Notes under the pieces: model-generated
What the model was told of the DNA's origin: nothing
The model's database searches: none
The model's input: the letters and a program-made list of their open reading frames with translations, nothing else
Position numbers and translations under genes: made by a program
Origin: a candidate division WWE3 bacterium CG22_combo_CG10-13_8_21_14_all_39_12
GTDB taxonomy: Bacteria; Patescibacteriota; 4484-211; GCA-002791395
DNA length: 49,732 bases
Reading direction: 5' to 3'
Assembly (NCBI GenBank): GCA_002771355.1
Contig: PCSU01000056.1
Span: 1 to 49,732 of the forward strand
Part shown: positions 132 to 40,861 of the stretch, one piece after another
Position numbering within the stretch: position 1 is the stretch's first letter
Layout: each line of letters begins with the position of its first letter

Positions 132-2294
132 TTAAATCTCACACACACTAAACCCACACTCCTTACACTTCCAACAATTGTGTTCGTGGACAAGGGGTTT
201 GTCACAATCCGGACATTTTCGCACTTTTTCTTCCTCTGGCTTATTACCATCGCCAAACTCAAACACCTGTTCACTCTTAGTTGCATCTCTATATACCGTT
301 AACCCCTTACAACCCAATTTCCATGCATGAACATACGCATCTTTAATGTCTTCTGGTGTTGCCGTTGATGGCATATTTACCGTTTTTGTAATCGCATTAT
401 CTGTCCATTTCTGGAACGAAGCCTGCATACGAATATGATCTTTCCAGTTAATATCATGTGCTACCTTAAACACTTTTTTAATATCTGCGGGCACTTCATC
501 AATCCCTTGCACACTTCCATGATTTGCTAATATTTTTTGCATCAACTCTTCGCTGTACACACCCGCGGCCTTTAACCTATCTTTTAGTTTTTCATTCATG
601 GTTTTAAGCCGCATTCCTCCTAAAATATTTTGTTCGTACGCTAGTGCAAAATGAGGTTCAATCGCAAAACTCGTTTCGCAAATAACTGCATTACCACTAC
701 TTGGTGGGAATGTAAGCAAGGCCACGTTTCGAGGTTTTTCTTTTTTGTCAGCCCAGATTGAATCTTTAACCAATGGGAATGCGCCCTTTTCTTTTGCAAT
801 CTCAACCGATGATTCAAACGCAGCCTCGTACATTGTTTTAGTTACTTTTTCGGCAAGTTTAAACGCTTCCTCAGAATCGTAGGCAATATCTAAATCAATC
901 AAAGCATCTGCCCAACCCACACAACCCATTCCTAATCGGCGATGAGCACGAACTGACTCATCAACCTTTTTTACCGGAAACCACGAAGCATCAATCACGT
1001 TATCCATTAAGCGTGTTGCTATCTTCATAACCTCAGCCAACCGTTTGTGGTCAAACTTTCCGTTGTCAATGAACTTGGTGAAGTTTACATACCCCAAATT
1101 GCATGATTCATATGGATATAACGGCACTTCTCCGCACGGATTAGTAGCCATAATCATGCCACGTTTTTTAAGTAGCGGATTGGCAAGCGCTGTTCCCCGA
1201 TTCATAGCCGATAAGTTTAGAATACCAGGATCCCCTGTTGCCCAGGCTAACTGTGCAACCAAATCAAGAATAGAACGTGCTTTAACCGTATTTTCAACTT
1301 CACCCGTTCGTGGGTTAACTAAATCCCAGTTTTTACCTTCAACCGCAGCCTCCATAAAGTCATCCGTAATACCTATTGATATATTAGTTTTGGGTAAGTA
1401 TCCATCATTTTTCTTGGCGCTAATAAAGTTAAAAATGTCAGGATGATTGGTATTTAATACAGCCATGTTTCCGCTCTCGTAACGTCCTTCTTGTCTAAAC
1501 ATGCTCGTCATCAAATCAAACATCTCTATGAGGCGCACAGGGCCTGCAGCGAGTTCTGGAATACCATTTACTGTGTCTCCTTCGGGTCGAATGTGTGAAA
1601 AATTGTATCCGCACCCACCACCATTACGCTTAATCTGTGTTGATTGGTGCAGGATTTTAAAAATATCGTCAATATCATCTTCAAGTGGCCATACAAAACA
1701 GTTAGCCAGTTGTGAACGGTCTTTACCTGAATTAGTAAGAGTTCTTGTTCCAGGCAAAAAATCAAAACTTACCATTATTGATAAGAATTTTTCGTACCAT
1801 TCCTTTTTCTTTTTGGCTCCTTTTTCTACACTACTTAGGGCTTTCGCCACGCGCTCTAACATCTGGCGTGGCGTTTCAATTGTCTGACCCTTCTCATCCC
1901 GTTTTAAGTATCTACGCTTTAGAATGTATAGCGTGTTGTACGACAAACCAATATCATCTTCAATCCCTAAAGACTCTTTGTCTTGAATTGCATGCTTTTG
2001 GTTTTCACGGTACAAAATAAACTCTTTTGAAACTTTGGCGTGACCATGTTCAATTAAGATTTTTTCAACGCCATTACCAATCTGCTCAGATGCGATAACT
2101 TTTGAATCTGGATATGTATTTACTAAATGTAAAACTGCTTCATCGGCCAGAACTTGGGCACGCTCTTTATCCGTTCCGCCAACTTTTTGTACCGCTAACC
2201 AAATCGACTGCAAAATCTTATTTTGCAAAAATGGCTGCGTGTCACCATTTCGTTTTGTTACGGTTTTAAATGGTATGGTCTTTTTATTAATCAT
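132..2294 (-). CDS. nrdJ: Class II (adenosylcobalamin-dependent) ribonucleotide reductase, paralog 1: ATP-cone + catalytic core + fused C-terminal Cys-rich zinc-finger tail
   Basis: 720-aa ORF. N-terminal ATP-cone-like segment (VTKRNGDTQPF...ILYRE). Redox Cys motifs LANCFVWPLED and ESCNLGY. Thiyl-radical loop ATNPCGEV. C-terminus CPDC-x9-CWKCKEC-x4-C. Confidence 0.9.
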   Translation of the reverse strand: MINKKTIPFKTVTKRNGDTQPFLQNKILQSIWLAVQKVGGTDKERAQVLADEAVLHLVNTYPDSKVIASEQIGNGVEKILIEHGHAKVSKEFILYRENQKHAIQDKESLGIEDDIGLSYNTLYILKRRYLKRDEKGQTIETPRQMLERVAKALSSVEKGAKKKKEWYEKFLSIMVSFDFLPGTRTLTNSGKDRSQLANCFVWPLEDDIDDIFKILHQSTQIKRNGGGCGYNFSHIRPEGDTVNGIPELAAGPVRLIEMFDLMTSMFRQEGRYESGNMAVLNTNHPDIFNFISAKKNDGYLPKTNISIGITDDFMEAAVEGKNWDLVNPRTGEVENTVKARSILDLVAQLAWATGDPGILNLSAMNRGTALANPLLKKRGMIMATNPCGEVPLYPYESCNLGYVNFTKFIDNGKFDHKRLAEVMKIATRLMDNVIDASWFPVKKVDESVRAHRRLGMGCVGWADALIDLDIAYDSEEAFKLAEKVTKTMYEAAFESSVEIAKEKGAFPLVKDSIWADKKEKPRNVALLTFPPSSGNAVICETSFAIEPHFALAYEQNILGGMRLKTMNEKLKDRLKAAGVYSEELMQKILANHGSVQGIDEVPADIKKVFKVAHDINWKDHIRMQASFQKWTDNAITKTVNMPSTATPEDIKDAYVHAWKLGCKGLTVYRDATKSEQVFEFGDGNKPEEEKVRKCPDCDKPLVHEHNCWKCKECGFSVCEI

Positions 2295-2314
2295 GTTTTA
2301 GTGAGTACACATTA

Positions 2315-4426
2315 TTAGTTGTCCAGCGAATACTCACGTTTACCCAGTGGTGTTAAGTTAACTTTTGACTGGATCATTTGTGTATCTTCACCCGATGAAC
2401 CGCTGCCAGAACTTAATACCTGCATATCACGACTTCCATCTCGATAAATAGTTACCCCCTTACAACCTAGTTTCCACGACAACATATATACTTCTTTTAC
2501 ATCATCAATCGTTGCGCTGTTTGGCATATTGATGGTTTTTGAAATGGCATTATCTGTATGTTTTTGGAAAGCTGCCTGCATTTTTACGTGAAATGCTGGT
2601 GAAATCTCGTGTGCAGTTACAAATAGCTTTTGAATTTTTTCTGGAATTTCTTTATTGTTTTGAAGCGAACCATGTTTTGAAACTTCTCCTAACACCTCAT
2701 CGTTATAAAACCCATTCTTTTTTGCCATATCTTCAAAATATTGGTTTACATAAAACACGCCTTTAGCATCAACGACATTTTTCCTAAACGCAACAGCAAA
2801 TATTGGTTCAATCCCACTTGATGCATTGGCAACCATACTTATTGAACCCGTTGGAGCAATACTTGTTCTTGCTGCATTTCGCATTTTTACTTTCATTTTT
2901 TTGTAAATACTTAAATCGTAATGTGGGAACACACCTTTTTCTTTTGCCAACTCTGCTGATGCGTTAAAGGCAGTGTCATTTACAAACTTCATAACCTCTT
3001 CAGCCGTTTTTAAGGCTTTGGGTGTGTTGTAGGGAATTCCAAGCTGAATTAACATATCGGCAAACCCCATAATTCCAAGACCAATGCGCCGGTTGCCTTT
3101 AGCCATCTCGGTAATTTTTTCGACAGGATATTCACTCAAATCAACACCATTATCCATAAACCTGGACGCTAAAATGGTGATTCGTTCAAGTTCCTTGTAA
3201 TCAATTTTGCCATCTTTTACCAATACCGCCAAATTAATAGATCCTAGGTTACAAACATCAAACGGATGTAACCACTGTTCACCACAAATATTTGTTGATT
3301 CCAAAGGCCCAAGGCCAGGTAACGGATTTGTCTTATTGGTATTATCTAAAAAGAGCATTCCCGGATCTCCGTTATCCCACGCAAGAGAGGTCATGATATC
3401 AAAAATACCCTCAGCATTTAAGGTGTGTACTTTTGCTCCAGTCCTAGGATTTATAAGATCAAAATCGCTTCCCTTTTGAACTGCTTTCATAAACGTATCG
3501 GTTGCACCAACTGAAACATTAAACGTTGTAAGGTTTTTGCCACCCCGTTTTGCATGAATAAAATCTAAAATATCAGGATGGTTGGCATTTAATACCGCCA
3601 TACTTGCAGCTTTACGATGCCCACCCATACCAATAACCTGGTTAGATGCGTCAATAACATGCATAAATGAAATAGGTCCTGTGGAAAGTCCACCTGACGA
3701 TTCCACAAAGTCTCCCGCTGGACGAATACGTGAAAAATTGTATCCCACTCCCCCACCCGCTCGTTGCGTTATTATTGCGGACTGTTTGATTGATTCATAA
3801 ATTGACTCAATACTGTCTTCAATTGGTAACACATGACAGTTTGATAACGGACCTCCAAACCCAGCATTCCGAAGATAACTTCCACCTGGAATAAATTTAC
3901 GTTTGGCCATTAACTCAAAAAACCCTTCAGCATTGTTAACAATTTCTTTTTTGCTTAATCCATACCTTTTATCTACATCAGCAATTGAGCTTGATACCCG
4001 TTCAAAAAGTTGGGTTGGATTCTCAATTGGATTGCCTGATGCATCTTTGCGTAAATGCCTAGCTTTAAGCGCACGTAATGAATTTATCGGTAGTTCAAGT
4101 GCATCATCAATCCCCAAGCTTTTACGCTCTTCTCGACGCTGTTCACGGTTTTTTCGGTACAAAATAAACGCTTTGGCAACATCATAATAACCGGCCGCCA
4201 TAAGGCATTGCTCAATCACATCTTGAATCTGTTCAACTTCAGGAACAGTAACATGTGTCTTTTTTAAGATCTCAACAACAATCTCACTTAAGCGTTTTGC
4301 CTCCTTTTCACCAAATGCCGATAGAGAATCTGCCGCTTTAAAAATTGCACGAATAATCCGATCTTTATCGAAAGCAACTATTGAACCATCTCGTTTTTTA
4401 ATTGTTGTTAGTGTTTTAGGTGACAT
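2315..4426 (-). CDS. nrdJ: Class II ribonucleotide reductase, paralog 2: ATP-cone + core, no Cys tail
   Basis: 703-aa ORF, 20 nt upstream of paralog 1. ATP-cone (IKKRDGSIVAFDKDRI...ILYRK). LSNCHVLPIED, STNICGEQ and DVCNLGS motifs. C-terminus is Gly/Ser-rich with no cysteines. Confidence 0.88.
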   Translation of the reverse strand: MSPKTLTTIKKRDGSIVAFDKDRIIRAIFKAADSLSAFGEKEAKRLSEIVVEILKKTHVTVPEVEQIQDVIEQCLMAAGYYDVAKAFILYRKNREQRREERKSLGIDDALELPINSLRALKARHLRKDASGNPIENPTQLFERVSSSIADVDKRYGLSKKEIVNNAEGFFELMAKRKFIPGGSYLRNAGFGGPLSNCHVLPIEDSIESIYESIKQSAIITQRAGGGVGYNFSRIRPAGDFVESSGGLSTGPISFMHVIDASNQVIGMGGHRKAASMAVLNANHPDILDFIHAKRGGKNLTTFNVSVGATDTFMKAVQKGSDFDLINPRTGAKVHTLNAEGIFDIMTSLAWDNGDPGMLFLDNTNKTNPLPGLGPLESTNICGEQWLHPFDVCNLGSINLAVLVKDGKIDYKELERITILASRFMDNGVDLSEYPVEKITEMAKGNRRIGLGIMGFADMLIQLGIPYNTPKALKTAEEVMKFVNDTAFNASAELAKEKGVFPHYDLSIYKKMKVKMRNAARTSIAPTGSISMVANASSGIEPIFAVAFRKNVVDAKGVFYVNQYFEDMAKKNGFYNDEVLGEVSKHGSLQNNKEIPEKIQKLFVTAHEISPAFHVKMQAAFQKHTDNAISKTINMPNSATIDDVKEVYMLSWKLGCKGVTIYRDGSRDMQVLSSGSGSSGEDTQMIQSKVNLTPLGKREYSLDN

Positions 4427-4496
4427 CTAAAATGTGTACATTTTTTAAACTAGTAAGTTTTTTCGAATGATTTCATCATTCTTATTTTTACTCTTA

Positions 4497-6299
4497 TTAT
4501 TTTTCCAACCTCTTTGTCTTGCTGGTTGCCATTACTTGAAACATTTTTGAACCATCCCGATAAATGGTTACGCCTTTACAACGCTCCTTCCATGCCAACA
4601 TGTAGGCATTCTTAACATCATCAAGCGTAGCCTCATTTGGTAGATTAATGGTCTTACTTACAGAATTATCTGCATACTCTTGCCACGCTGCTTGAATCTT
4701 TACGTGATATTTCCAACTAATATCATGCGTGGTTACAAATACTTTTTTAAGGTCTTCAGGGATCTCATCAATCCCATGCAAACTCCCACCGTTTTCAATG
4801 ATCTTTTCAATAATAGTCTTTTTATGCAACCCTCGCTCTTTTAAGGTTTCTTCGAAAACAGGATCAAGATATGTCATCACTTCAGTTGGTTTGTTTTCAC
4901 TTGCCTTCTCAAAGGATGTTCGTCTTTCATATCCAAGTGAAAACGCAGGCTCTATTCCTGAGGTTGTGTTGGCTATCATTGATACCGTACCTGTTGGAGC
5001 AATGGTAAACATGGTACTGTTCCGGTACTTTTCGGCTGTACCTTTGTACGTTGAAATATCAAAATTCGGAAAAACCCCTCTGGTGGTGGCTAGCTCTAGA
5101 GACGCTTTTTCAAACTCCCCCTTAATAAACTTTGCCATTCGCCTGGCAAACCTGACACCTTCCATTGAGTTATAAGAAATACCAAGCTTAAATAACACAT
5201 GCCCAAACCCAATCACACCTGCACCAATTTTTCTATTTCCATACCGAACCATTTTTTCTGTCTCAGGCAATATGTATGTATTAACCTCAATCATATTATC
5301 CAAAAACCTCACAATAGTACGCGTAGTTTGAGCCAACGTATCCCAATCAACTGTCCAATCCTTTCCCTTTTTAACCATATGTGAATCAAGGTTTATTGAT
5401 GATAAATTACAACTCTCAAATGGAAGTAGAGGTTGTTCTCCACAAGGATTTGTCGCATTCAAAAGTCCTAGTGAGGGAGTAAAATTATCTTCTTCAGTGC
5501 GATCTAAAAACATGAGTCCTGGATCTCCACTAATCCACGCATGTTCAGAAATTTGATCAAACAGTGCCCTGGCTTTTATTTTTTTAACCACTTCCCCATT
5601 ACGTGGATTTACAAGCGACCACATTTTGTCGTCTTGTACCGCTTCCATGAATTCATTAGTAACACCAACCGAAATATTAAAGTTTTTAATTGTTTGATCC
5701 TCATCTTTAACTTGAATAAAATCCTCAATATCTGGATGATCAACGTTTAAAATTCCCATGTTTCCACCATGACGTTTGCCACCTTGAATAACTTTAGATA
5801 ATGCGGCTGAATAGGCCTGCAAAAAATCAACAGGACCAGATGCAGCATTTAATACTCCCCTGACCTTATCACCATGTGGGCGTATTTTTGAAAAGTTAAA
5901 TCCTGTACCACCATAATTTTTCTGAACAATTGCAGCTTTTCCTAGATTCTCAAAAATGGAGCTTATATTATCTTCAACTGGAATCACAAAACAGGGGGAT
6001 AACTGATTTGCTGCTGTTGGATTACCCGCTTCATAAAGAGTACTCCGTGTAACAATAAGTCTGTTTTCACGCATAGACTCAAAAAACATTTCACGAGCAG
6101 CCTCAACTTCGGTCCCATTTCCCCAATTAAGTTCAGCCTTTGCCATATGGTTTGCAACTCGAAGATATATCTCGCCCGGTGTCTCTAAAGACTTCCCATC
6201 ATCATCTGTAATAGAACAACGTGACACCAGTGTTTTTTTTGCATTAGGAGCCATCTTTGGTTCTTTAAAATACTTTGGTTTTTTTATATTTATTTTCAT
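4497..6299 (-). CDS. nrdJ: Class II ribonucleotide reductase, paralog 3: core only (no ATP-cone, no Cys tail)
   Basis: 600-aa ORF. LSPCFVIPVED, ATNPCGEQPLLPFESCNLSS and VTIYRDGS motifs. The start could alternatively be Met16 (MAPNAKK). Confidence 0.88.
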   Translation of the reverse strand: MKINIKKPKYFKEPKMAPNAKKTLVSRCSITDDDGKSLETPGEIYLRVANHMAKAELNWGNGTEVEAAREMFFESMRENRLIVTRSTLYEAGNPTAANQLSPCFVIPVEDNISSIFENLGKAAIVQKNYGGTGFNFSKIRPHGDKVRGVLNAASGPVDFLQAYSAALSKVIQGGKRHGGNMGILNVDHPDIEDFIQVKDEDQTIKNFNISVGVTNEFMEAVQDDKMWSLVNPRNGEVVKKIKARALFDQISEHAWISGDPGLMFLDRTEEDNFTPSLGLLNATNPCGEQPLLPFESCNLSSINLDSHMVKKGKDWTVDWDTLAQTTRTIVRFLDNMIEVNTYILPETEKMVRYGNRKIGAGVIGFGHVLFKLGISYNSMEGVRFARRMAKFIKGEFEKASLELATTRGVFPNFDISTYKGTAEKYRNSTMFTIAPTGTVSMIANTTSGIEPAFSLGYERRTSFEKASENKPTEVMTYLDPVFEETLKERGLHKKTIIEKIIENGGSLHGIDEIPEDLKKVFVTTHDISWKYHVKIQAAWQEYADNSVSKTINLPNEATLDDVKNAYMLAWKERCKGVTIYRDGSKMFQVMATSKTKRLEK

Positions 6300-6404
6300 A
6301 ATCTTAAGATGTAACCCTATCTATGGACTCAGAATATATAAGGGATTTCTGCCTTACCATATTCTGAATCCACAACTATAATTACCACTGGTAACTATAT
6401 ACCA

Positions 6405-6575
6405 CTAACTGCATTTTGTGTGTCCACATGACAAACACAAAAAACATCCTTCTTGAAAAGCAACAGGACCAGCCCCACATTCTGGACAGAAAAAGTTACT
6501 CGTCTGATCTTCTGCAGAATTAGTATTCTCATTGGCACCTGTTAATTGTATTGTTTGCGTCTCAGTTTGAATAAT
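6405..6575 (-). CDS. Stand-alone Cys-rich zinc-ribbon mini-protein resembling the class II RNR C-terminal redox tail (56 codons, putative ATT start)
   Basis: Hand translation of the minus strand gives IIQTETQTIQLTGANENTNSAEDQTSNFFCPECGAGPVAFQEGCFLCLSCGHTKCS, ending at TAG (6407-6405). The Cys spacing C-x2-C-x10-C-x2-C-x2-C-x4-C matches the tail of paralog 1. A strong SD, AAGGAGGTG (6588-6580), sits just upstream of ATT at 6575 (GGAGG core 6 nt upstream). The open frame contains no ATG, GTG or TTG. Confidence 0.5.
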   Translation of the reverse strand: MIQTETQTIQLTGANENTNSAEDQTSNFFCPECGAGPVAFQEGCFLCLSCGHTKCS

Positions 6576-6595
6576 AAAACACCTCCTTATGTTGT

Positions 6596-8341
6596 TTACT
6601 TTGCTCCTACCGTTAAAACTTGAGTATCTCTACTGTTATTTCTATATACGGTAACTCCTTTGCACTTTAAGTCGTACGCTTGAATATATACATTCTCAAC
6701 ATCTTCTATGGTTGATTGTTCTGGCATATTTACCGTTTTAGTAATAGCATTATCAGTAAATTCCTGAAACGCTGCTTGCATCTTTACATGCCATTCAGGT
6801 GATATATCATGTGCCGTAACAAAAGATCGCTTTAAATCATCAGGTATTGCATCAATATCCCTAACGGACCCTACAACACCAATTCGTTCCATAATTTCAT
6901 TAGAATTGACACCTCGTTTTTGAGATACTTTTTTAAAAACCGGATTAAGTTCAACAAGTTTTGTATCTCCCATTGTCTCCATGTTTTGCCTGGTATAAGC
7001 CAACGCAAAAAATGGTTCTATTCCGCCAGAAACCCCCGCAACAAGACTCGTTGTACCGGTTGGAGCAATTGTAGTTATTGTACAGTTTCGCATTCGATCA
7101 AAACCCCACTTTTCAAACACACTTTTATCAAAGTTCGGAAAACTTCCTTTCTCTTCAGCTAATTTCATTGATTCATCACGTCCAATATCAGTCATTCGCT
7201 TCATAAGTTTACGAGCCAACTCTAGCGCATCCTCGGAATCATAAGGAATTCCCTGATACGCCAACACATCAGCAAAGCCCATGACGCCAAGCCCAATTCG
7301 ACGATTACCATGATTAACATCATACATTTCTTGAATGGGGTATTCATTTAAATCAATACTATTGTCTAAAAATCTAACAGCAAGACGAACTACCCGTTCA
7401 TACTCATTCCAATCAAAAACATACCCTTCCTGCGTTTCATTCAAAAATCGTGGCAGAACAATAGAACCTAGTGTACATGCTTCATATGGAAGCAATGGTT
7501 GCTCACCACACTGATTGACTGACTCGATCTTTCCAACTCCAGGTACCGTATTGTGTCGATTAATTTCATCAATAAAAATCACGCCTGGTTCTGCACTACT
7601 GTGAGCACTCTCTGCAATTTGTCGTAATAATTTTCTGGCACTTACCGTTTCCCACACTTTTCCATCCCTCGGGTTGATGAGGTTAAAATCAGAATCCGTT
7701 TTTACAGCGTCCATAAATGCGTCAGTTATTGCAACAGAAATATTAAAATTAGTTAGCTGAGAGTAATCTTTTTTAGCATCAATAAATTTAAAAATATCTG
7801 GATGATCAACACGCAACACGCCCATATGTCCTGCATGACGAATCGAACCAATATTTAAAATCACTTCACTACTAAAGTCAAACAAACGCATAAATGAAAT
7901 TGGTCCTGTTGCTGGCTTTCCTGTTGATAAAATCATGTCCCCTTCAGGGCGAATTTTAGAAAAATCATAACCTACAGCAGCGCCAGCACGATGAACCAAA
8001 GCTGCATTATGGAGTGTTCCATAAATAGATGTTAAATGATCTTCAATGGGCAAAACAAAACATGCCGAAAGTATGCGATTTGACCGACCTGCGTTTCGCA
8101 TTGGAGTTCCTGACACAAATTTAAGACTCGATAAAATATCGTAAAAATCTTCTTCAACCGACTCAGCAGACCGACTGGTGGGATATTTATTCTCAACGGA
8201 GGCCAATGTTTTTGCAATACGCTCAAACATCTCTTCTGGAGTTTCAAGAACATTACCACTCTCATCCCTTCGAAGATACCGTTTTTCAAGTACCGTTAAT
8301 CCATTTTCGGGAATGTCTAGTGATGTTAGTACTTTACTCAT
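6596..8341 (-). CDS. nrdJ: Class II ribonucleotide reductase, paralog 4: core only
   Basis: 581-aa ORF. LSACFVLPIED, SVNQCGEQPLLPYEACTLGS and VTVYRNNS motifs. Ends ...TVGAK with no Cys tail. Confidence 0.88.
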   Translation of the reverse strand: MSKVLTSLDIPENGLTVLEKRYLRRDESGNVLETPEEMFERIAKTLASVENKYPTSRSAESVEEDFYDILSSLKFVSGTPMRNAGRSNRILSACFVLPIEDHLTSIYGTLHNAALVHRAGAAVGYDFSKIRPEGDMILSTGKPATGPISFMRLFDFSSEVILNIGSIRHAGHMGVLRVDHPDIFKFIDAKKDYSQLTNFNISVAITDAFMDAVKTDSDFNLINPRDGKVWETVSARKLLRQIAESAHSSAEPGVIFIDEINRHNTVPGVGKIESVNQCGEQPLLPYEACTLGSIVLPRFLNETQEGYVFDWNEYERVVRLAVRFLDNSIDLNEYPIQEMYDVNHGNRRIGLGVMGFADVLAYQGIPYDSEDALELARKLMKRMTDIGRDESMKLAEEKGSFPNFDKSVFEKWGFDRMRNCTITTIAPTGTTSLVAGVSGGIEPFFALAYTRQNMETMGDTKLVELNPVFKKVSQKRGVNSNEIMERIGVVGSVRDIDAIPDDLKRSFVTAHDISPEWHVKMQAAFQEFTDNAITKTVNMPEQSTIEDVENVYIQAYDLKCKGVTVYRNNSRDTQVLTVGAK

Positions 8342-8355
8342 GAGTGATACTTCTT

Positions 8356-8383
8356 ATCATAAAAAAAACAGAGTATTAGTCAA
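8356..8383 (-). promoter_or_regulatory. Candidate sigma70-type promoter for nrdJ paralog 4 (TTGACT-16 nt-TATGAT)
   Basis: Minus strand reads TTGACT (8383-8378), a 16-nt spacer, then TATGAT (8361-8356). The ATG lies 14 nt downstream of the -10 and no SD is visible. Confidence 0.45.
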
Positions 8384-8556: not shown

Positions 8557-9099
8557 ATGAAGATTTACACACGAACTGGAGATAACGGAAAGACCTCTCT
8601 TTTTACTGGTGAGAGAACATCAAAAGATGCCTTACGAATAATATGTATTGGAACAATTGATGAACTAAATGCAGCAATCGGAGTCGTTGTTTCTCAACTA
8701 AAAAACACTCCTTCCTCTGAAGACACTGCCATCCGCTTGAGAACTATCCAACGCAAACTCTTTACTACCGGTAGTTCACTTGCAAACTCTAATCTTTCCA
8801 TAACACAAGAAGATATTAACAATATGGAAGCTAGTATTGATTACTTAACTGATCACCTACCAACACTTAACAATTTTATTTTGCCTGGAGGTAGTCAGGC
8901 TGCAAGTAGTTGCCATCTTGCACGAACTATCTGTAGAAGATGCGAACGGCTATTAGTAACTCTAAACAACACTGAGTCGATTGACCCACTTGTTTTGCAA
9001 TTTTTTAATCGCCTTTCTGACTATTTATTCACGATAGCACGGGCAATAAATATTAACGAAGGTACAGGAGAAATAATTTGGAATAGACATAATCTGTAA
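8557..9099 (+). CDS. pduO: PduO-type ATP:cob(I)alamin adenosyltransferase
   Basis: The N-terminus MKIYTRTGDNGKTSLFTGERTSKD is the hallmark PduO/MMAB-type start. About 180 aa with a helical-bundle-type sequence. I chose ATG 8557 rather than the ORF-track start at 8485. Confidence 0.85.
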   Translation: MKIYTRTGDNGKTSLFTGERTSKDALRIICIGTIDELNAAIGVVVSQLKNTPSSEDTAIRLRTIQRKLFTTGSSLANSNLSITQEDINNMEASIDYLTDHLPTLNNFILPGGSQAASSCHLARTICRRCERLLVTLNNTESIDPLVLQFFNRLSDYLFTIARAININEGTGEIIWNRHNL

Positions 9100-17172: not shown

Positions 17173-17343
17173 ATGGAAGAAATTCAAACAAAACAAGTAC
17201 CATGTCTAGACTGCGACTCTACTCTTGAGGTCGTTGACGATATTGAGATTGGAGATATTCTAGTATGCGAGGGTTGCGGTGTTGAACTAGAAGTAGTTAA
17301 CAATAACCCCACAGAACTTGATTATCTCTATGTTCAAAAATAA
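17173..17343 (+). CDS. LysW-like zinc-ribbon small protein (amino-group carrier protein fold) lacking the canonical acidic EDWGE tail
   Basis: 56 aa: MEEIQTKQVPCLDCDSTLEVVDDIEIGDILVCEGCGVELEVVNNNPTELDYLYVQK. The CxxC...GE/D-I-hydrophobic-C-E-x-CG-x-ELEVV pattern matches LysW. SD AAGGTGGTG lies 6 nt before ATG 17173. Antisense to the dcw operon. Confidence 0.6.
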   Translation: MEEIQTKQVPCLDCDSTLEVVDDIEIGDILVCEGCGVELEVVNNNPTELDYLYVQK

Positions 17344-35578: not shown

Positions 35579-37417
35579 TTACCAGGAAATTGTTTTTACC
35601 GTATCTGTAGTAACATCAAAAGAATCTTCAAGTTTATCATTTACAAATATAGTATGCTCAACTGAACTTTTCCCCGGTTGTTTTTGTATAGTAAGTGTAA
35701 ACTCATCGCCATCCTGCCGTGGAATTGTATAGGTAAAAGAAACTACTTGTGAAGAAAGTGCAGGAATTCGAACGAAGTTATCAAACACCGTTTTTCCAAG
35801 ATCGTTATAAACTTGGCTTTGAGCTTCTCCACCGGAAAAATCAATAAGTTGAGATCCTTTCGGAACATATACTCTTAAGTAATTACGAGCTGTAGCATTA
35901 AGCCAACCATCAAACGTTCCCGTATTTTCATAGGTAAGATTGACCTTTACCGTAATTACCCCCTGATCAGAACGAGTATAGTGGTGTTCAACCGATCGGA
36001 CTAAATACATATCTGACTTTAATCCTGCAAGGTTTGCATCATTTACATGAAAATAATCTTCATCCGTAGAAACTATTCTACCGGAAAAATTGTATTGTTC
36101 TGACAGGTCTTGAAGCTCAGGATCAGTAAAATACAATAATACATGCTTTTGATCTAGTTGCTTAGTAACTACGCTAAAAAGGGGCATCCACTGGGTACTC
36201 TTTACTGACATGACTTGATCAAAAATATTATTCATCAATGCCCCAATAACATCTTTTCTAAGTGCTTGATCTGAGGTGAGCTGACTTGAATAAAACTCTA
36301 AGCGACACACAACATTTTCCGAGGTAAATGTTGTCCCTCCATCTTTACAAGACGCTGGAACATATGGAAATAAACTAAAATCAATACTATAATCTGGAAT
36401 TTCAACATCCCCTGTGAATTCAAGCAACGCCGAAACAAATTGAGTATCTATTGCAATGATCCCATCAACAGACGCTTGGCCAATTTGTTTCCAATACGTA
36501 TGGAACATATCCATTGACTCTTTGTAGTCTGGTGAGAAGTTTGTATCTCTCATATGCCAAGCTGTTTCCGTAAGATATTTTATTATGGGAGCTGGAGGTG
36601 TGTAATAAACCTGATCATCTCTAATCTCATAAATGTTTTTTGCTTCAGAAAAAGAAATCTCGCCTGACTTACTATTTAAAATAGTAAATGATGTAATAAA
36701 TCCTCCAGTTGGACGTAACTCCTTGTCGTTTTGAAACAATACCAAATACCGTTTTGTTGCATCAACTCCCATTAAATCAGGTAATTGCATTACAAACTCC
36801 TTAATTTGAGGAATATTTTCGGAAAATGACTGCGTAAGTTTAACTCCTTCCCGTGCGTAATCACGTATTGGAATTCCTAAGTTTGGGTAGGTATCAACTG
36901 ACAAATCATTAACCAAGACTATAACTGGCTCAATATCAGAAAGATATGTATCTAAAATTGGAATTATTTGTGGTGATATTTTTAAGAAATTTTCTAAGTA
37001 CTGTTCACTACCACTTGATGTATCAAGACCTAATGCCAAAGAGAATGGAGCCACATTCTCTAAAAAATCTTGGTGAACAAACAGCCCCTCATCGATAATC
37101 TTAGCAATAATAGGAAGATCTTTATAAACCGGCTTTACCATAGGAACATAATTTAATAGTTTCATCTGATCAATTGCAATGAGTAGATCTGCAGTATTAA
37201 CCCTCAAAGAGGCAAGTACTGATGGCAGTTGATCAATAGTTCGCTGCGAAGCATGTGTTTTAAGATCTTGAGCATCATCGTAAACCAATGATGCTGAATC
37301 AATAATGACACCTGTGGGGGAAAGAACAGTAATGTAACAAACAAAACCTTGAAAACAAGCAATTGCAATAAGTAATAATATTAATTTTGCGTGATGTTTT
37401 ATAACAAGCATAGACAC
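35579..37417 (-). CDS. Membrane-anchored extracytoplasmic protein of unknown function (possibly DUF4012-like, a family often adjacent to envelope glycan genes)
   Basis: 612 aa with an N-terminal TM helix (LILLLIAIACFQGFVCYITVL). No catalytic motif recognised. The family assignment is from memory only. Confidence 0.4.
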   Translation of the reverse strand: MSMLVIKHHAKLILLLIAIACFQGFVCYITVLSPTGVIIDSASLVYDDAQDLKTHASQRTIDQLPSVLASLRVNTADLLIAIDQMKLLNYVPMVKPVYKDLPIIAKIIDEGLFVHQDFLENVAPFSLALGLDTSSGSEQYLENFLKISPQIIPILDTYLSDIEPVIVLVNDLSVDTYPNLGIPIRDYAREGVKLTQSFSENIPQIKEFVMQLPDLMGVDATKRYLVLFQNDKELRPTGGFITSFTILNSKSGEISFSEAKNIYEIRDDQVYYTPPAPIIKYLTETAWHMRDTNFSPDYKESMDMFHTYWKQIGQASVDGIIAIDTQFVSALLEFTGDVEIPDYSIDFSLFPYVPASCKDGGTTFTSENVVCRLEFYSSQLTSDQALRKDVIGALMNNIFDQVMSVKSTQWMPLFSVVTKQLDQKHVLLYFTDPELQDLSEQYNFSGRIVSTDEDYFHVNDANLAGLKSDMYLVRSVEHHYTRSDQGVITVKVNLTYENTGTFDGWLNATARNYLRVYVPKGSQLIDFSGGEAQSQVYNDLGKTVFDNFVRIPALSSQVVSFTYTIPRQDGDEFTLTIQKQPGKSSVEHTIFVNDKLEDSFDVTTDTVKTISW

Positions 37418-38873: not shown

Positions 38874-39743
38874 TTACGTGTAGATTATAACAATGATACT
38901 TAGTCCCCACAACAACGCGGTCAAAATAATTTGTTTATCAGTCAATAGTGTTCGGGTCGGATCCTCCCCCTTATTGTCCGTATAAACCAAAAGCAGATAC
39001 CTAAATAATCCATATACGACAAGTGGGACAGTATAAACCAACGCTGAGGTTCCCAAACGATTAACAACATCCGGTGCTTGAGTATACAAAACATAACTTA
39101 ATAAACTTGCCGTTGATACTATTGTTAAGAGTGTATCCAGAAGTTGTGGGGTGTAGTTTTGTAAAGATTTTCTTGTTCCAGAAGCACTATCTCCTAATAG
39201 CAAAAACTCATGCCTACGTTTTCCAATTACAAGAAATAACGCAAGAAAAAATGTTGTTATAAATAGCCAGTTTGAAATAGTAACCCCAATTGCAACACCA
39301 CCCGCTACCGCACGAATTACAAAACCGAGTGAAACGATAAGAATATCAACCAATTCGATGTGTTTTAAAACCTTTGTATATGATGTTGTAAGAATAAGAT
39401 ATACCATAAGAATGGCAAAAAATTGAGGGCTTACTAATAACGCCGTACCTACACTTACTACAAATAACACCCCTGCAATAATCCATGCCTGACGAGTAGA
39501 TATAACTCCTGCTGCTAATGGCCGATACTTTTTGACTGGATGTAAACGATCCCTTGTTATATCAACAATATCGTTCACAACATATGTTGCACTTGCAGCA
39601 CACGAAAATGCAATAAAACCAAGAATTGTAAGATATAGAGAATCTTGATCAGATAAGCGTTGCGCAAAGAGTAGCGCTGCAAATAACAAAAGGTTTTTTG
39701 CCCACTGATGTACTCGAATTAGTCGTATTACGTTTCGTTGCAT
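38874..39743 (-). CDS. UbiA-family prenyl-phosphate transferase, decaprenyl-phosphate phosphoribosyltransferase (DPPR synthase)-like
   Basis: VVNDIVDITRDRLHPVKKYRPLAAG resembles the Rv3806c-type NDxxDxxxD...K.RP.A.G motif. About 8 TM helices. 289 aa. Confidence 0.7.
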   Translation of the reverse strand: MQRNVIRLIRVHQWAKNLLLFAALLFAQRLSDQDSLYLTILGFIAFSCAASATYVVNDIVDITRDRLHPVKKYRPLAAGVISTRQAWIIAGVLFVVSVGTALLVSPQFFAILMVYLILTTSYTKVLKHIELVDILIVSLGFVIRAVAGGVAIGVTISNWLFITTFFLALFLVIGKRRHEFLLLGDSASGTRKSLQNYTPQLLDTLLTIVSTASLLSYVLYTQAPDVVNRLGTSALVYTVPLVVYGLFRYLLLVYTDNKGEDPTRTLLTDKQIILTALLWGLSIIVIIYT

Positions 39744-40861
39744 ATGCTATGTAGTCGATCCACAAAAACCTCCCTAGAAAACCCCTTCGCATGATTTACT
39801 AGCTTTGTTTTATCCCATGATATCTCAGGTACCCTTTTAAGAGCCACCTTTAGATCATCTGCCGTTTGGGATTCAAACAGTATACCCGTTTCATTTGAAA
39901 TAACAGTATCACGTGCCCCCCCTTTATTATAGGCAACAACAGGTATACCACATGCATTAGCTTCAATAATCGTCATACCAAAATCTTCATATTGCGGATG
40001 AAGCAAAGCCACGCTGTGACGCAATACATATGAAGCCTCTTTGTCAGTAAGATATCCAGCCATAATCGTTGACCCAGTTGCGCGGGACGCTAATTTTTTA
40101 TATGCAGCTCCGGTACCAATAATTACTAACGGAATGTTAAGTTCCTGACATGCATCAATCGCCACATCAATGCGCTTCCATTCAACGAGACGAGACATCA
40201 CAACCATATAGTTGTCGGGAAGATCAAACGATGGTTTTTCCTCTCCATTAAACCTTTCAAAATCAACAAACGGAAACAACACTTCTGCATCACGTCGATG
40301 ATATTTATTGATTCTCTTTACCACAATACTGCTATTGCCATAAACAACATCAGCACGTTGACCCGCAATATAATCCGATTGGCGCATTGTTGAAAGGATC
40401 GGTAAAAGAAGTCGACGTAACATTGTACCCAATCTCCCAGATCCAAAATACATTCGTGGTTCCCAAAACCCTCTAAATGGAGAGTGAATGTAACTTATGT
40501 GTTTAGTCGTTGGCTTAGTAACAATTCCATGAGCAAACCTTGTGGATGTTGAAAAAACAATATCAAAATCAGAAAAATCAAACTGCTCGAAAACTAAAGG
40601 ATAGAGGTAAAACAATACTTTATTGATAAATGCTTTAGCAGGAAGTTTATCTAATATACTTGTTCGAAACCTGGTTGCATCAATTCCTGTTTTTTTAATC
40701 ACATCACTTGTTACCATTGATGTAAATATCGGTGCACCAGGAAACTCATGAGCTATTGCAGCCATTACACGTTCAGCCCCACCCCATTGAACAAAATCGT
40801 CATGAACTAATGCTATTTTTGGGGTGACGGGCTCTTGAATCGATTCCTTTAATTGACTCAC
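39728..40861 (-). CDS. GT4-family (GT-B) glycosyltransferase
   Basis: N-terminus IALVHDDFVQWGGAERV. C-terminal EDFGMTIIEANACGIPVVA (E-x7-E-type motif). Confidence 0.85.
   Translation of the reverse strand: MSQLKESIQEPVTPKIALVHDDFVQWGGAERVMAAIAHEFPGAPIFTSMVTSDVIKKTGIDATRFRTSILDKLPAKAFINKVLFYLYPLVFEQFDFSDFDIVFSTSTRFAHGIVTKPTTKHISYIHSPFRGFWEPRMYFGSGRLGTMLRRLLLPILSTMRQSDYIAGQRADVVYGNSSIVVKRINKYHRRDAEVLFPFVDFERFNGEEKPSFDLPDNYMVVMSRLVEWKRIDVAIDACQELNIPLVIIGTGAAYKKLASRATGSTIMAGYLTDKEASYVLRHSVALLHPQYEDFGMTIIEANACGIPVVAYNKGGARDTVISNETGILFESQTADDLKVALKRVPEISWDKTKLVNHAKGFSREVFVDRLHSICNET

What the first reader, a model, noticed from the sequence alone, without database searches (positions are those of the whole stretch)
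6405..6588. Stand-alone mini-ORF encoding a class II RNR-type Cys-rich zinc-finger tail, with the strongest SD in the window but no canonical start codon
Seen: after the stop of nrdJ paralog 4 (6598-6596) the minus strand reads TAA-acaacat-AAGGAGGTG-tttt-ATT ATT CAA. From ATT (6575) a 56-codon frame runs to TAG (6407-6405): IIQTETQTIQLTGANENTNSAEDQTSNFFCPECGAGPVAFQEGCFLCLSCGHTKCS. Its spacing C-x2-C-x10-C-x2-C-x2-C-x4-C has the same architecture as the fused C-terminus of paralog 1 (CPDC-x9-CWKCKEC-x4-C). The frame is open back to 6629 but contains no ATG, GTG or TTG, and it is out of frame with paralog 4. Established: many class II RNRs carry a C-terminal Cys-rich zinc-finger tail that shuttles reducing equivalents to the active-site cysteine pair. 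Inference: here the tail has been split off as a ~6 kDa diffusible protein. It could serve the three tail-less paralogs in trans, with ATT or another non-canonical initiation limiting its level. The ORF track misses it because it is under 60 aa and non-ATG.
Basis: partly seen in the sequence, partly recalled or inferred. Interest (0 to 1): 0.8.

Follow-up and report, generated by a model that had tools for sequence, protein, structure and literature searches.

The report
Free-standing RNR zinc-finger redox tail gene
A 55-codon gene inside a cluster of four vitamin-B12-dependent ribonucleotide reductase genes encodes only the cysteine-rich zinc-finger "tail" that these enzymes normally carry fused; related Saccharibacteria have it as a separate gene starting with ATG, and this strain alone has ATT at that position.

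Summary
On the minus strand, nrdJ paralog 4 stops at 6598-6596. It is followed by a 10-nt Shine-Dalgarno TAAGGAGGTG (6589-6580), ATT ATT, and an open frame to TAG 6407-6405. That frame ends in CPECGAGPVAFQEGCFLCLSCGHTKCS.

It is not a frameshifted end of paralog 4. At least nine related loci, all annotated ones being Saccharibacteria or other CPR bacteria, carry a separate 44-63 aa gene for this motif. Six of them, including all three close relatives, place it directly upstream of the paralog-3-type, tail-less NrdJ. All nine start with ATG.

The closest gapless alignment (L043, TAAGGAGGTGTTTACCTATGCAA) puts that ATG on the window's second ATT (6572-6570). The start is therefore a strain-specific ATG-to-ATT change, not a conserved design.

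The zinc-finger half is under strong purifying selection (dN/dS about 0.03). It is homologous to the six-cysteine end of the class II RNR cysteine-rich domain.

Best reading: a minimal, free-standing version of that redox module (a "mini-NrdJb") re-reduces tail-less NrdJ paralogs in trans. Here it would be translated at reduced level from AUU with help from the extended SD. A very recent start-codon loss cannot be excluded. I rate it a new variant of a known kind, of moderate-to-good interest.

The parts
6405..6572 (-). Stand-alone mini zinc-finger gene: 55 codons plus TAG, product (f)M/I-QTETQ...CGHTKCS, 5.85 kDa, pI 4.1.
   Evidence: Orthologous 44-63 aa ATG-initiated genes in L002-L011/L014, L012, L013, L033, L034, L037, L039-41 and L043.
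6570..6572 (-). ATT codon at the position of the relatives' ATG start (third-base G to T). Proposed AUU initiation codon.
   Evidence: The alignment with L043 is gapless: TAAGGAGGTGTTTACCTATGCAA against window TAAGGAGGTGTTTTATTATTCAA. The 7-nt spacer matches the 6-7 nt seen in relatives.
6573..6575 (-). First ATT, an alternative near-cognate start only 4 nt after the SD. Less likely, because this spacing is shorter than in any relative.
6580..6589 (-). Extended Shine-Dalgarno TAAGGAGGTG, a 10-nt perfect anti-SD complement.
   Evidence: Unique in the window and the longest SD among 40 starts surveyed. Conserved in L002, L012 and L043, which have ATG. The local RNA is not structured, z = +1.2.
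6408..6488 (-). Zinc-ribbon / six-Cys array. By analogy with S. nassauensis NrdJd, C29, C32, C46 and C49 would bind Zn, and C43 and C54 would be the redox pair.
   Evidence: The six Cys are invariant in 48 aligned sequences. AF2 pLDDT is 85-90 with three beta strands. dN/dS is about 0.03. Cys roles are taken from Loderer 2017, PMC5704485.
6489..6569 (-). Variable, acidic/polar, predicted-disordered N-terminal half, equivalent to a linker.
   Evidence: pLDDT about 50. Only composition is conserved, not sequence.
6596..8341 (-). nrdJ paralog 4 (581 aa), tail-less. It ends exactly where the crystallised T. maritima NrdJ core ends. Active-site residues C94, N276, C278, E280 and C289 are present.
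4497..6299 (-). nrdJ paralog 3 (600 aa), tail-less. It is the conserved downstream neighbour of the mini gene in relatives.
2315..4426 (-). nrdJ paralog 2 (703 aa, ATP-cone), tail-less.
132..2294 (-). nrdJ paralog 1 (720 aa, ATP-cone) with its own fused six-Cys zinc-finger tail, encoded at about 135-221.
8356..8383 (-). Promoter-like site (TTGACT-16-TATGAT, 10/12) upstream of paralog 4. A possible operon promoter, based on a consensus match only.

Best explanation
The locus encodes a free-standing 55-residue protein. Its N-terminal half is a disordered acidic linker and its C-terminal half is the six-cysteine zinc ribbon that ends the cysteine-rich domain (CRD) of most dimeric class II ribonucleotide reductases. 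It lies in an operon of four ancient NrdJ paralogs, three of which end at the catalytic barrel with no tail cysteines.

Inferred mechanism: four cysteines (C29, C32, C46, C49) hold a Zn ion. The other pair (C43, C54) carries reducing equivalents into the active-site Cys pair of the tail-less NrdJ subunits, most likely the co-conserved paralog-3 type. It would act as a diffusible or loosely bound subunit, a minimal NrdJb.

In relatives the gene has a 9-10-nt SD and an ATG. In this strain the ATG has mutated to ATT. Translation would then start at AUU with initiator tRNA, aided by the extended SD at the same 7-nt spacing, and would give a few percent to about 10% of the AUG level.

Shown: gene integrity, orthology, homology to RNR tails, purifying selection, SD and spacing, and catalytic residues in all four paralogs.
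Inferred: translation from AUU, Zn binding, redox shuttling in trans, and partner identity.
For: - Stand-alone orthologues of 44-63 aa, all with ATG, occur in 9 related lineages or loci inside nrdJ clusters next to ftsA-ftsZ.
- The second ATT aligns gaplessly with the ATG of L043, with the same 10-nt SD and the same 7-nt spacer.
- An independent JGI contig (L001) is identical over the region and differs at 1 of 18,341 nt overall.
- No gene was called in this interval on JGI contig L001. No protein with this sequence is in the protein collection, whereas JGI did call the 55-aa ATG version, P0001.
- In the 28 C-terminal codons, dN/dS is 0.029-0.034 against L002 and L012, with dS about 1.
- A profile of the mini proteins hits the extreme C-termini of RNR-barrel / TSCPD proteins and NrdJb-like TSCPD proteins.
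- Identity to a Dehalococcoidia NrdJ tail is 64% over 28 aa, pairwise E = 5e-12.
- AF2 predicts a confident zinc-ribbon C-terminal half and a disordered N-terminal half. The best structural matches are zinc ribbons at about 1.5 Å, but none is significant.
- All four paralogs keep the redox Cys pair and N-x-C-x-E. Paralogs 2-4 have no tail Cys.
- Literature: the CRD six-Cys array is required for turnover, binds Zn, and can transfer electrons between subunits (PMC5704485). NrdJb, as a separate polypeptide, mediates reductive dithiol exchange (PMC4520616).
- Literature on AUU starts: AUU initiates at 1-2% of AUG in E. coli, where infC and pcnB use it (10.1101/063800). In S. aureus, the AUU start of the 61-aa zinc-finger gene cvfC1 with an extended SD gives about 10% of AUG (PMC13009471).
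Against: - ATT is found only in this strain, so nothing shows that the AUU start is selected rather than a fresh lesion.
- No expression data exist for this uncultivated organism.
- In vitro, a separately expressed full CRD did not rescue a CRD-deleted NrdJd (PMC5704485). That CRD was barely soluble.
- The physiological reductant of the CRD is unknown.
- Paralog 1 carries its own fused tail and could in principle serve the others, as in loci where a tail-less NrdJ sits beside a tail-bearing one with no mini gene (L044).
- The partner assignment rests on synteny alone.
Confidence: 0.6

Rival explanations
1. Recent pseudogenisation. The ATG-to-ATT change has silenced the gene in this strain. The intact frame and SD only reflect how recent the mutation is. 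The cell relies on paralog 1's fused tail or another reductant.
For: ATT is unique to this lineage and all nine relatives have ATG. Near-cognate starts give only 1-2% of AUG in E. coli. A tail-bearing paralog exists in the same operon. Pairwise dN/dS cannot isolate the terminal branch.
Against: There is no second lesion. The frame is intact across the fast-evolving N-terminal half, the Cys array is identical to relatives', and the 10-nt SD and its spacing are perfectly retained. Extended SDs are the context that supports AUU/AUA starts in Gram-positive bacteria, at about 10% of AUG.
Confidence: 0.25
2. Fusion by -1 ribosomal frameshifting. Ribosomes slip on GCA-AAG just before the paralog-4 stop and read through into the tail frame, which is open back to 6629. 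This would make a tail-bearing paralog 4.
For: The tail frame is -1 relative to paralog 4 and open across the last 11 codons. A-AAG is a known single-tRNA slip site next to a stop (own knowledge: B. subtilis cdd, E. coli dnaX).
Against: There is no X-XXY-YYZ heptamer and no significant local structure. An 18-codon open overlap is unremarkable in 38% GC DNA. In L002 the -1 frame is closed by TAA right at the junction, and relatives translate the gene separately from ATG. A fusion product would read through the rare AGG-AGG of the SD.
Confidence: 0.04
3. Sequencing or assembly error at the start codon, or a missed indel that should fuse the frame to paralog 4.
For: A single base decides the matter, and no reads could be inspected.
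Against: An independent JGI assembly (L001) has the identical sequence. Fusion is not the ancestral state, because relatives have stop + SD + ATG. No protein corresponding to an ATG allele is in the protein collection.
Confidence: 0.05

Closest known systems
NrdJb subunit of the split class II RNR (NrdJa+NrdJb) of Pseudomonas aeruginosa (Crona et al. 2015, PMC4520616)
   Same: The redox-shuttling C-terminal module of a class II RNR is encoded by its own gene next to the catalytic gene. It ends in the same six-Cys zinc finger. Its role is reductive dithiol exchange.
   Different: NrdJb is about 200 aa and contains the IscU-like/TSCPD domain plus the zinc finger. NrdJa has an extra C-terminal docking domain (PMC9669993). 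Here the product is 55 aa: the zinc finger plus a disordered linker, with no TSCPD hit. The neighbouring catalytic subunits end at the barrel, and there are four catalytic paralogs. The lineage is CPR/Saccharibacteria rather than gamma-Proteobacteria.
Fused cysteine-rich domain (CRD) zinc finger of NrdJd and other dimeric class II RNRs (Loderer et al. 2017, PMC5704485; Burnim et al. 2022, PMC9669993)
   Same: It has the same CX2C...CX2CX2C...C array at the very C-terminus. It is 64% identical to Dehalococcoidia NrdJ tails. It has a predicted zinc-ribbon fold.
   Different: It is not covalently attached to any catalytic domain. It lacks the 150-220 aa CRD body.
AUU/AUA-initiated genes with extended SD (E. 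coli infC and pcnB; S. aureus cvfC1, ccpN, infC; PMC13009471, 10.1101/063800)
   Same: A near-cognate AUU follows a long, perfectly paired SD at canonical spacing. Like cvfC1, the product is a small (about 60 aa) zinc-finger protein.
   Different: In those genes the non-canonical codon is conserved across species. Here it is confined to one strain, and every relative has ATG.
NrdH-redoxin (dedicated small reductant of class Ib RNR)
   Same: The concept is the same: a small, operon-encoded, diffusible dithiol protein dedicated to re-reducing an RNR. This comparison rests on my own knowledge.
   Different: The fold is unrelated (thioredoxin fold versus zinc ribbon). NrdH reduces the enzyme's own C-terminal Cys pair, whereas here the module would replace that pair.

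Membership tests
Class II RNR CRD zinc-finger module | Array of six conserved cysteines, CX2C-x(9-10)-CX2CX2C-x(4-5)-C, at the extreme C-terminus | tested here: met
   the six Cys are invariant in 48 aligned sequences, and one residue follows the last Cys.
Class II RNR CRD zinc-finger module | Sequence homology to C-termini of bona fide NrdJ proteins | tested here: met
   (64% over 28 aa to a 768-aa Dehalococcoidia NrdJ). (profile hits end-on to proteins with Ribonuc_red_lgC and TSCPD domains).
Class II RNR CRD zinc-finger module | Zinc-ribbon fold with a 4-Cys Zn site and a separate Cys pair | tested here: inconclusive
   AF2 gives pLDDT 85-90 and three strands. Foldseek gives only generic zinc ribbons at E > 0.3. 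Cys geometry was not inspected.
Class II RNR CRD zinc-finger module | Zn binding and requirement for catalytic turnover | not testable with these tools
   Needs ICP-MS and TCEP/DTT activity assays as in PMC5704485.
Class II RNR CRD zinc-finger module | Covalently fused to the catalytic subunit, as part of a 150-220 aa CRD | tested here: not met
   It has its own SD and stop and is out of frame with paralog 4. It has no TSCPD hit. Relatives have separate ATG genes.
NrdJb (split class II RNR subunit) | Separate gene adjacent to the catalytic nrdJ gene | tested here: met
NrdJb (split class II RNR subunit) | IscU-like/TSCPD domain preceding the zinc finger (about 200 aa) | tested here: not met
   The product is 55 aa, has no TSCPD hit, and its N-terminal half is disordered.
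NrdJb (split class II RNR subunit) | Partner NrdJa carries an extra C-terminal folded domain | tested here: not met
   Paralog 4 ends at the same point as the T. maritima core construct. Paralog 3 ends 12 residues after the barrel motif.
NrdJb (split class II RNR subunit) | Forms a (NrdJa-NrdJb)2 complex and is essential for activity | not testable with these tools
   This needs biochemistry.
Conserved non-canonical (AUU) start genes | Near-cognate codon at the orthologous start position behind an extended SD at canonical spacing | tested here: met
Conserved non-canonical (AUU) start genes | Non-canonical codon conserved among relatives | tested here: not met
   All nine relatives have ATG.
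Conserved non-canonical (AUU) start genes | Initiation at the codon demonstrated | not testable with these tools
   Needs Ribo-Ret, toeprinting or a reporter.
Programmed -1 frameshift fusion | Slippery heptamer plus stimulator in the overlap, conserved in relatives | tested here: not met
   Only A-AAG is present, with no heptamer. There is no structure, z = +1.2. Relatives close the -1 frame.

The most novel reading that the evidence does not exclude
The mini zinc-finger protein may be a new type of dedicated, diffusible RNR redoxin. It would be a 5-6 kDa Zn-ribbon dithiol carrier shared by several tail-less NrdJ paralogs and recurrent in CPR bacteria. About 30 further short candidates of 70 aa or less appear in the representative search. 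If so, it would explain how many class II RNRs with cysteine-free C-termini are re-reduced. In this strain its dosage would be set by an AUU start read through an extended SD.
Probability: 0.4. Interest if true: 0.7.

Novelty: new variant of a known kind. Interest (0 to 1): 0.55.

Why it matters
Class II RNRs need their active-site disulfide re-reduced after every turnover. The six-Cys zinc finger is known to do this, but only as part of a fused 150-220 aa domain or of the roughly 200-aa NrdJb. Burnim et al. 2022 (PMC9669993) report that 26% of zinc-finger-less class II C-termini contain no cysteine at all, and that only about 40% of those are explained by NrdJa/NrdJb.

A conserved gene for a free 55-aa zinc finger next to such tail-less enzymes offers a concrete, testable answer for part of that gap. 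It also defines the minimal functional unit of the CRD. That unit may be soluble, unlike the aggregation-prone full CRD, which could help identify the still unknown physiological reductant. Such genes fall below common ORF length cut-offs and are easily missed, especially with a non-ATG start as here.

Tried and rejected
- **Foldseek against PDB and a profile search of PDB sequences.** These gave only generic zinc ribbons or C2H2 noise. No solved RNR tail exists.
- **Rfam and tRNA scans of the window.** Nothing was found.
- **The strong hairpin between the mini gene and paralog 3 (z = -5.1).** I tested it for conservation in six relatives. It is not conserved, it is unique in the window, and it has no U-tract, so I did not pursue it as a regulatory element.
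- **Mini protein as a duplicate of paralog 1's tail.** Rejected: there is no significant BLASTP alignment.
- **P0117 and P0118 as stand-alone examples.** Rejected: their N-termini are CRD/TSCPD fragments on a fragmented assembly. P0074 and P0081 also look like fragments or an adapter artefact.
- **L042.** Its 62-aa gene carries the motif but is followed by a membrane protein, and the RNR context could not be verified.
- **Dojkabacteria locus L044.** A tail-less NrdJ there has no mini gene within 10 kb. The mini gene is therefore not universal for tail-less NrdJs.
- **Co-folding the peptide with each paralog.** This could not be run. Only single-chain prediction is offered, and chimeric inputs are not accepted.

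Full report
**1. Observation.**
- nrdJ paralog 4 (6596..8341) ends GCA AAG TAA (6598-6596).
- It is followed by acaaca, TAAGGAGGTG (6589-6580), tttt, ATT (6575-6573), ATT (6572-6570) and CAA.
- The frame then runs to TAG (6407-6405). It encodes ...NFFCPECGAGPVAFQEGCFLCLSCGHTKCS.
- The frame is open back to 6629 and is -1 relative to paralog 4.
- There is no ATG, GTG or TTG upstream of the Cys array. Two in-frame TTG codons lie inside the array and are irrelevant.
- AAGGAGGTG is unique in the window.
- Among 40 gene starts surveyed, this 10-nt anti-SD match is the longest. The runner-up is 8 nt, before a GTG start, and most genes have 4 nt or less.

**2. Context.**
- Four tandem ORFs of 720, 703, 600 and 581 aa are all class II-type RNR catalytic subunits by Pfam.
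- Paralog 4 aligns end to end with the T. maritima B12-dependent NrdJ core (1XJE, E = 1e-104). It stops exactly where that crystallised, CRD-less construct stops.
- All four keep the redox Cys pair and the N-x-C-x-E motif.
- Only paralog 1 has a fused six-Cys tail. Paralogs 2-4 have no tail cysteines.
- The paralogs are 36-45% identical to each other, so the duplications are ancient.
- The cluster follows the dcw/ftsA-ftsZ cluster. It sits beside a divergently transcribed PduO-type cobalamin adenosyltransferase.
- The closest named relative is a Candidatus Saccharibacteria MAG.

**3. It is a real, conserved, separate gene.**
The 56-aa query found three stand-alone proteins of 54-55 aa (E down to 3.7e-14). 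Further searches added more. Their genomic contexts are as follows.

| Locus | Mini gene | Context |
|---|---|---|
| L002-L011, L014 | P0001, 55 aa | ftsZ, adenosyltransferase, NrdJ-583, mini, NrdJ-603, NrdJ-703, NrdJ-717 |
| L012 | P0002 | Between paralog-4-type and paralog-3-type genes |
| L043 | 55 aa | Same order as the window; paralog-4 orthologue 81% identical |
| L034, L037, L013 | 63, 59, 55 aa | After a monomeric-type NrdJ ending in a C-x4-C pair; in L034 and L037 also before a paralog-3 orthologue (the L013 contig ends) |
| L039-41 | P0012, 51 aa | ftsZ, mini, NrdJ-614, NrdJ-797 (TSCPD + zinc finger), NrdR |
| L033 | P0004, 44 aa | Before an ATP-cone protein |

The conserved neighbour is the downstream, tail-less, paralog-3-type NrdJ of about 600 aa. 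It follows the mini gene in L002, L012, L034, L037, L039 and L043, and the upstream gene varies.

**4. What the product is.**
- A profile of the mini proteins was searched against 1.84 billion representatives and gave 112 hits. Almost all carry the motif at their extreme C-terminus.
- The long hits are RNR barrels with a TSCPD domain. Several of about 200 aa (P0008, P0009) are TSCPD + zinc finger, i.e. NrdJb-like.
- A Dehalococcoidia NrdJ (768 aa) ends FSCPECGGPVAFQEGCVICQACAWNQCGG. This is 64% identical to the mini protein over 28 residues.
- Paralog 1's own tail shares only the Cys architecture.
- AF2 with a 48-sequence alignment predicts residues 1-28 disordered (pLDDT about 50). It predicts residues 29-56 as a three-stranded zinc ribbon (pLDDT 85-90).
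- Foldseek finds only generic zinc ribbons, with nothing significant.
- In Loderer et al. 2017, Cys 1, 2, 4 and 5 of the array are modelled as Zn ligands and Cys 3 and 6 as the redox pair. All six are needed for TCEP-supported turnover, and electrons can pass between subunits.

**5. The start codon.**
- All nine relatives start with ATG.
- L043 reads TAAGGAGGTG-TTTACCT-ATG-CAA. The window reads TAAGGAGGTG-TTTTATT-ATT-CAA.
- The SD, the 7-nt spacer and the second codon (Gln) are the same. The window's second ATT is therefore the orthologous start, changed by one G-to-T transversion.
- The product is 55 aa, as in L002 and L043.
- An independent JGI contig (L001) is identical across the region.
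- On that JGI contig no gene was called in the interval, and no protein with this sequence is in the protein collection. JGI did call the ATG version in the sister lineage.
- One caveat applies. The Logan contig L043 also lacks a call for its ATG gene, so absence of a call is informative only for JGI data.
- The ribosome-binding region is not structured (z = +1.2).

**6. Selection.**
- In the 28 C-terminal codons, window versus L002 shows 10 synonymous and 2 non-synonymous differences (dN/dS 0.029, dS 1.08). Window versus L012 gives dN/dS 0.034.
- The N-terminal half has diverged almost completely yet stays open.
- This proves long-term function of the gene family. It cannot date the start-codon change.

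**7. Mechanism (best explanation, about 0.6).**
- The gene makes a minimal, free-standing CRD zinc finger. This module re-reduces the active-site disulfide of tail-less NrdJ paralogs in trans.
- This is functionally analogous to NrdJb, which mediates reductive dithiol exchange as a separate polypeptide (PMC4520616).
- In this strain, initiation would occur at AUU with the extended SD. AUU gives 1-2% of AUG in E. coli (10.1101/063800).
- AUU gives about 10% of AUG in S. aureus for cvfC1, a 61-aa zinc-finger gene with an extended SD (PMC13009471).
- The strong SD is ancestral, because relatives with ATG have it too. It suggests the small protein is normally made in excess over the enzymes. The ATT would lower that level.

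**8. Rivals.**
- Recent loss of the start, giving an incipient pseudogene (about 0.25). ATT is unique to this strain, but there is no second lesion.
- A -1 frameshift at GCA-AAG-TAA (about 0.04). There is no heptamer, no structure and no conservation.
- Sequencing error (about 0.05). Two assemblies agree.

**9. Comparison and novelty.**
- The kind is known: the class II RNR CRD zinc finger, and its genetic separation as NrdJb.
- The variant is new in the library I could search. The product is only 55 aa with no IscU-like/TSCPD body. The partners have no docking domain. The gene sits in a four-paralog NrdJ operon of Saccharibacteria or other CPR bacteria.
- Searches for Saccharibacteria, Patescibacteria or CPR together with class II RNR or NrdJ found nothing relevant.
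- Loderer 2017 and Burnim 2022 mention only NrdJb as a separate CRD.
- Burnim 2022 notes that 26% of zinc-finger-less class II tails have no Cys, and that only about 40% of these are NrdJa. Mini genes like this one could account for some of the rest.
- It is not universal. The Dojkabacteria locus L044 pairs a tail-less NrdJ with a tail-bearing giant fusion and has no mini gene.

**10. Verdict.**
I rate it a new variant of a known kind, with interest about 0.55.

Noticed in passing
window 132-8341 (minus strand): Four tandem class II RNR (nrdJ) paralogs occupy about 8.2 kb. They are 36-45% identical to each other, and each has a 79-88% orthologue in the same order in a related Saccharibacteria MAG. 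Two have ATP-cones and two do not. This is a striking investment for a CPR-type organism, and the reason for four catalytic subunits is unexplained.
   Followed up: partly
window 8557-9099 (+): A PduO-type ATP:cob(I)alamin adenosyltransferase (Pfam Cob_adeno_trans) is transcribed divergently from the nrdJ operon. The arrangement is conserved in relatives. The enzyme would supply the AdoCbl cofactor.
   Followed up: partly
window 6311-6385 (minus-strand RNA): A very stable hairpin lies between the mini gene's stop and the paralog 3 start (-40 kcal/mol for 6290-6420, z = -5.1). It has no U-tract, and paralog 3 has almost no SD. It is unique in the window and not conserved in six relatives, some of which have shorter hairpins at the same place.
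   Followed up: yes
window, all gene starts (for example 40861, 37417): Most genes in the window have little or no SD (4 nt or less of anti-SD match). After the mini gene, the longest SD (8 nt) precedes a GTG start (39728..40861), and one of the 5-nt matches also precedes a GTG start (35579..37417). This hints at compensation of weak start codons by SD strength.
   Followed up: no
L034 3276-5528; L013 3-644; L037 1-1850: In more distant relatives, the gene upstream of the mini gene is not paralog-4-type. It is a monomeric-type NrdJ (RNR_Alpha and RNR-II insertion domains) ending in its own C-x4-C pair (...YACSGGGCEV). In L013 the mini gene overlaps it by ATGA.
   Followed up: partly
L044 12503-17317: A Dojkabacteria MAG has a 1604-aa ORF containing two RNR catalytic modules, a weak Ham1p-like (ITPase) hit, a TSCPD domain and a terminal six-Cys zinc finger. 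It lies next to a tail-less 577-aa NrdJ and a dCTP deaminase gene.
   Followed up: no
L039 5001-10156: On a 284-kb contig the order is ftsZ, mini zinc-finger gene (51 aa), NrdJ-614, NrdJ-797 (TSCPD + zinc finger), NrdR, and a separate 130-aa TSCPD-only protein. The two halves of the CRD therefore also occur as separate small genes.
   Followed up: no
window 17173-17343 (+): A 56-aa LysW-type zinc-ribbon gene sits inside the dcw cluster, next to PALP and ATP-grasp genes. The coordinates are converted from JGI gene calls on the identical contig L001.
   Followed up: no
window 6590-6597 versus L012 and L002: Compared with L012 and L002, where the paralog-4 stop TAA overlaps the SD (TAAAGGAGG), the window has about 8 extra bases (ACAACATA) between the stop and the SD. 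L043 also has a spacer (TAGAAATTTT).
   Followed up: no
P0081: One short database hit contains the peptide DVYKRQ. This looks like a translated Nextera adapter (own knowledge), so some short 'stand-alone' hits in metagenome protein sets are contig-end artefacts.
   Followed up: no
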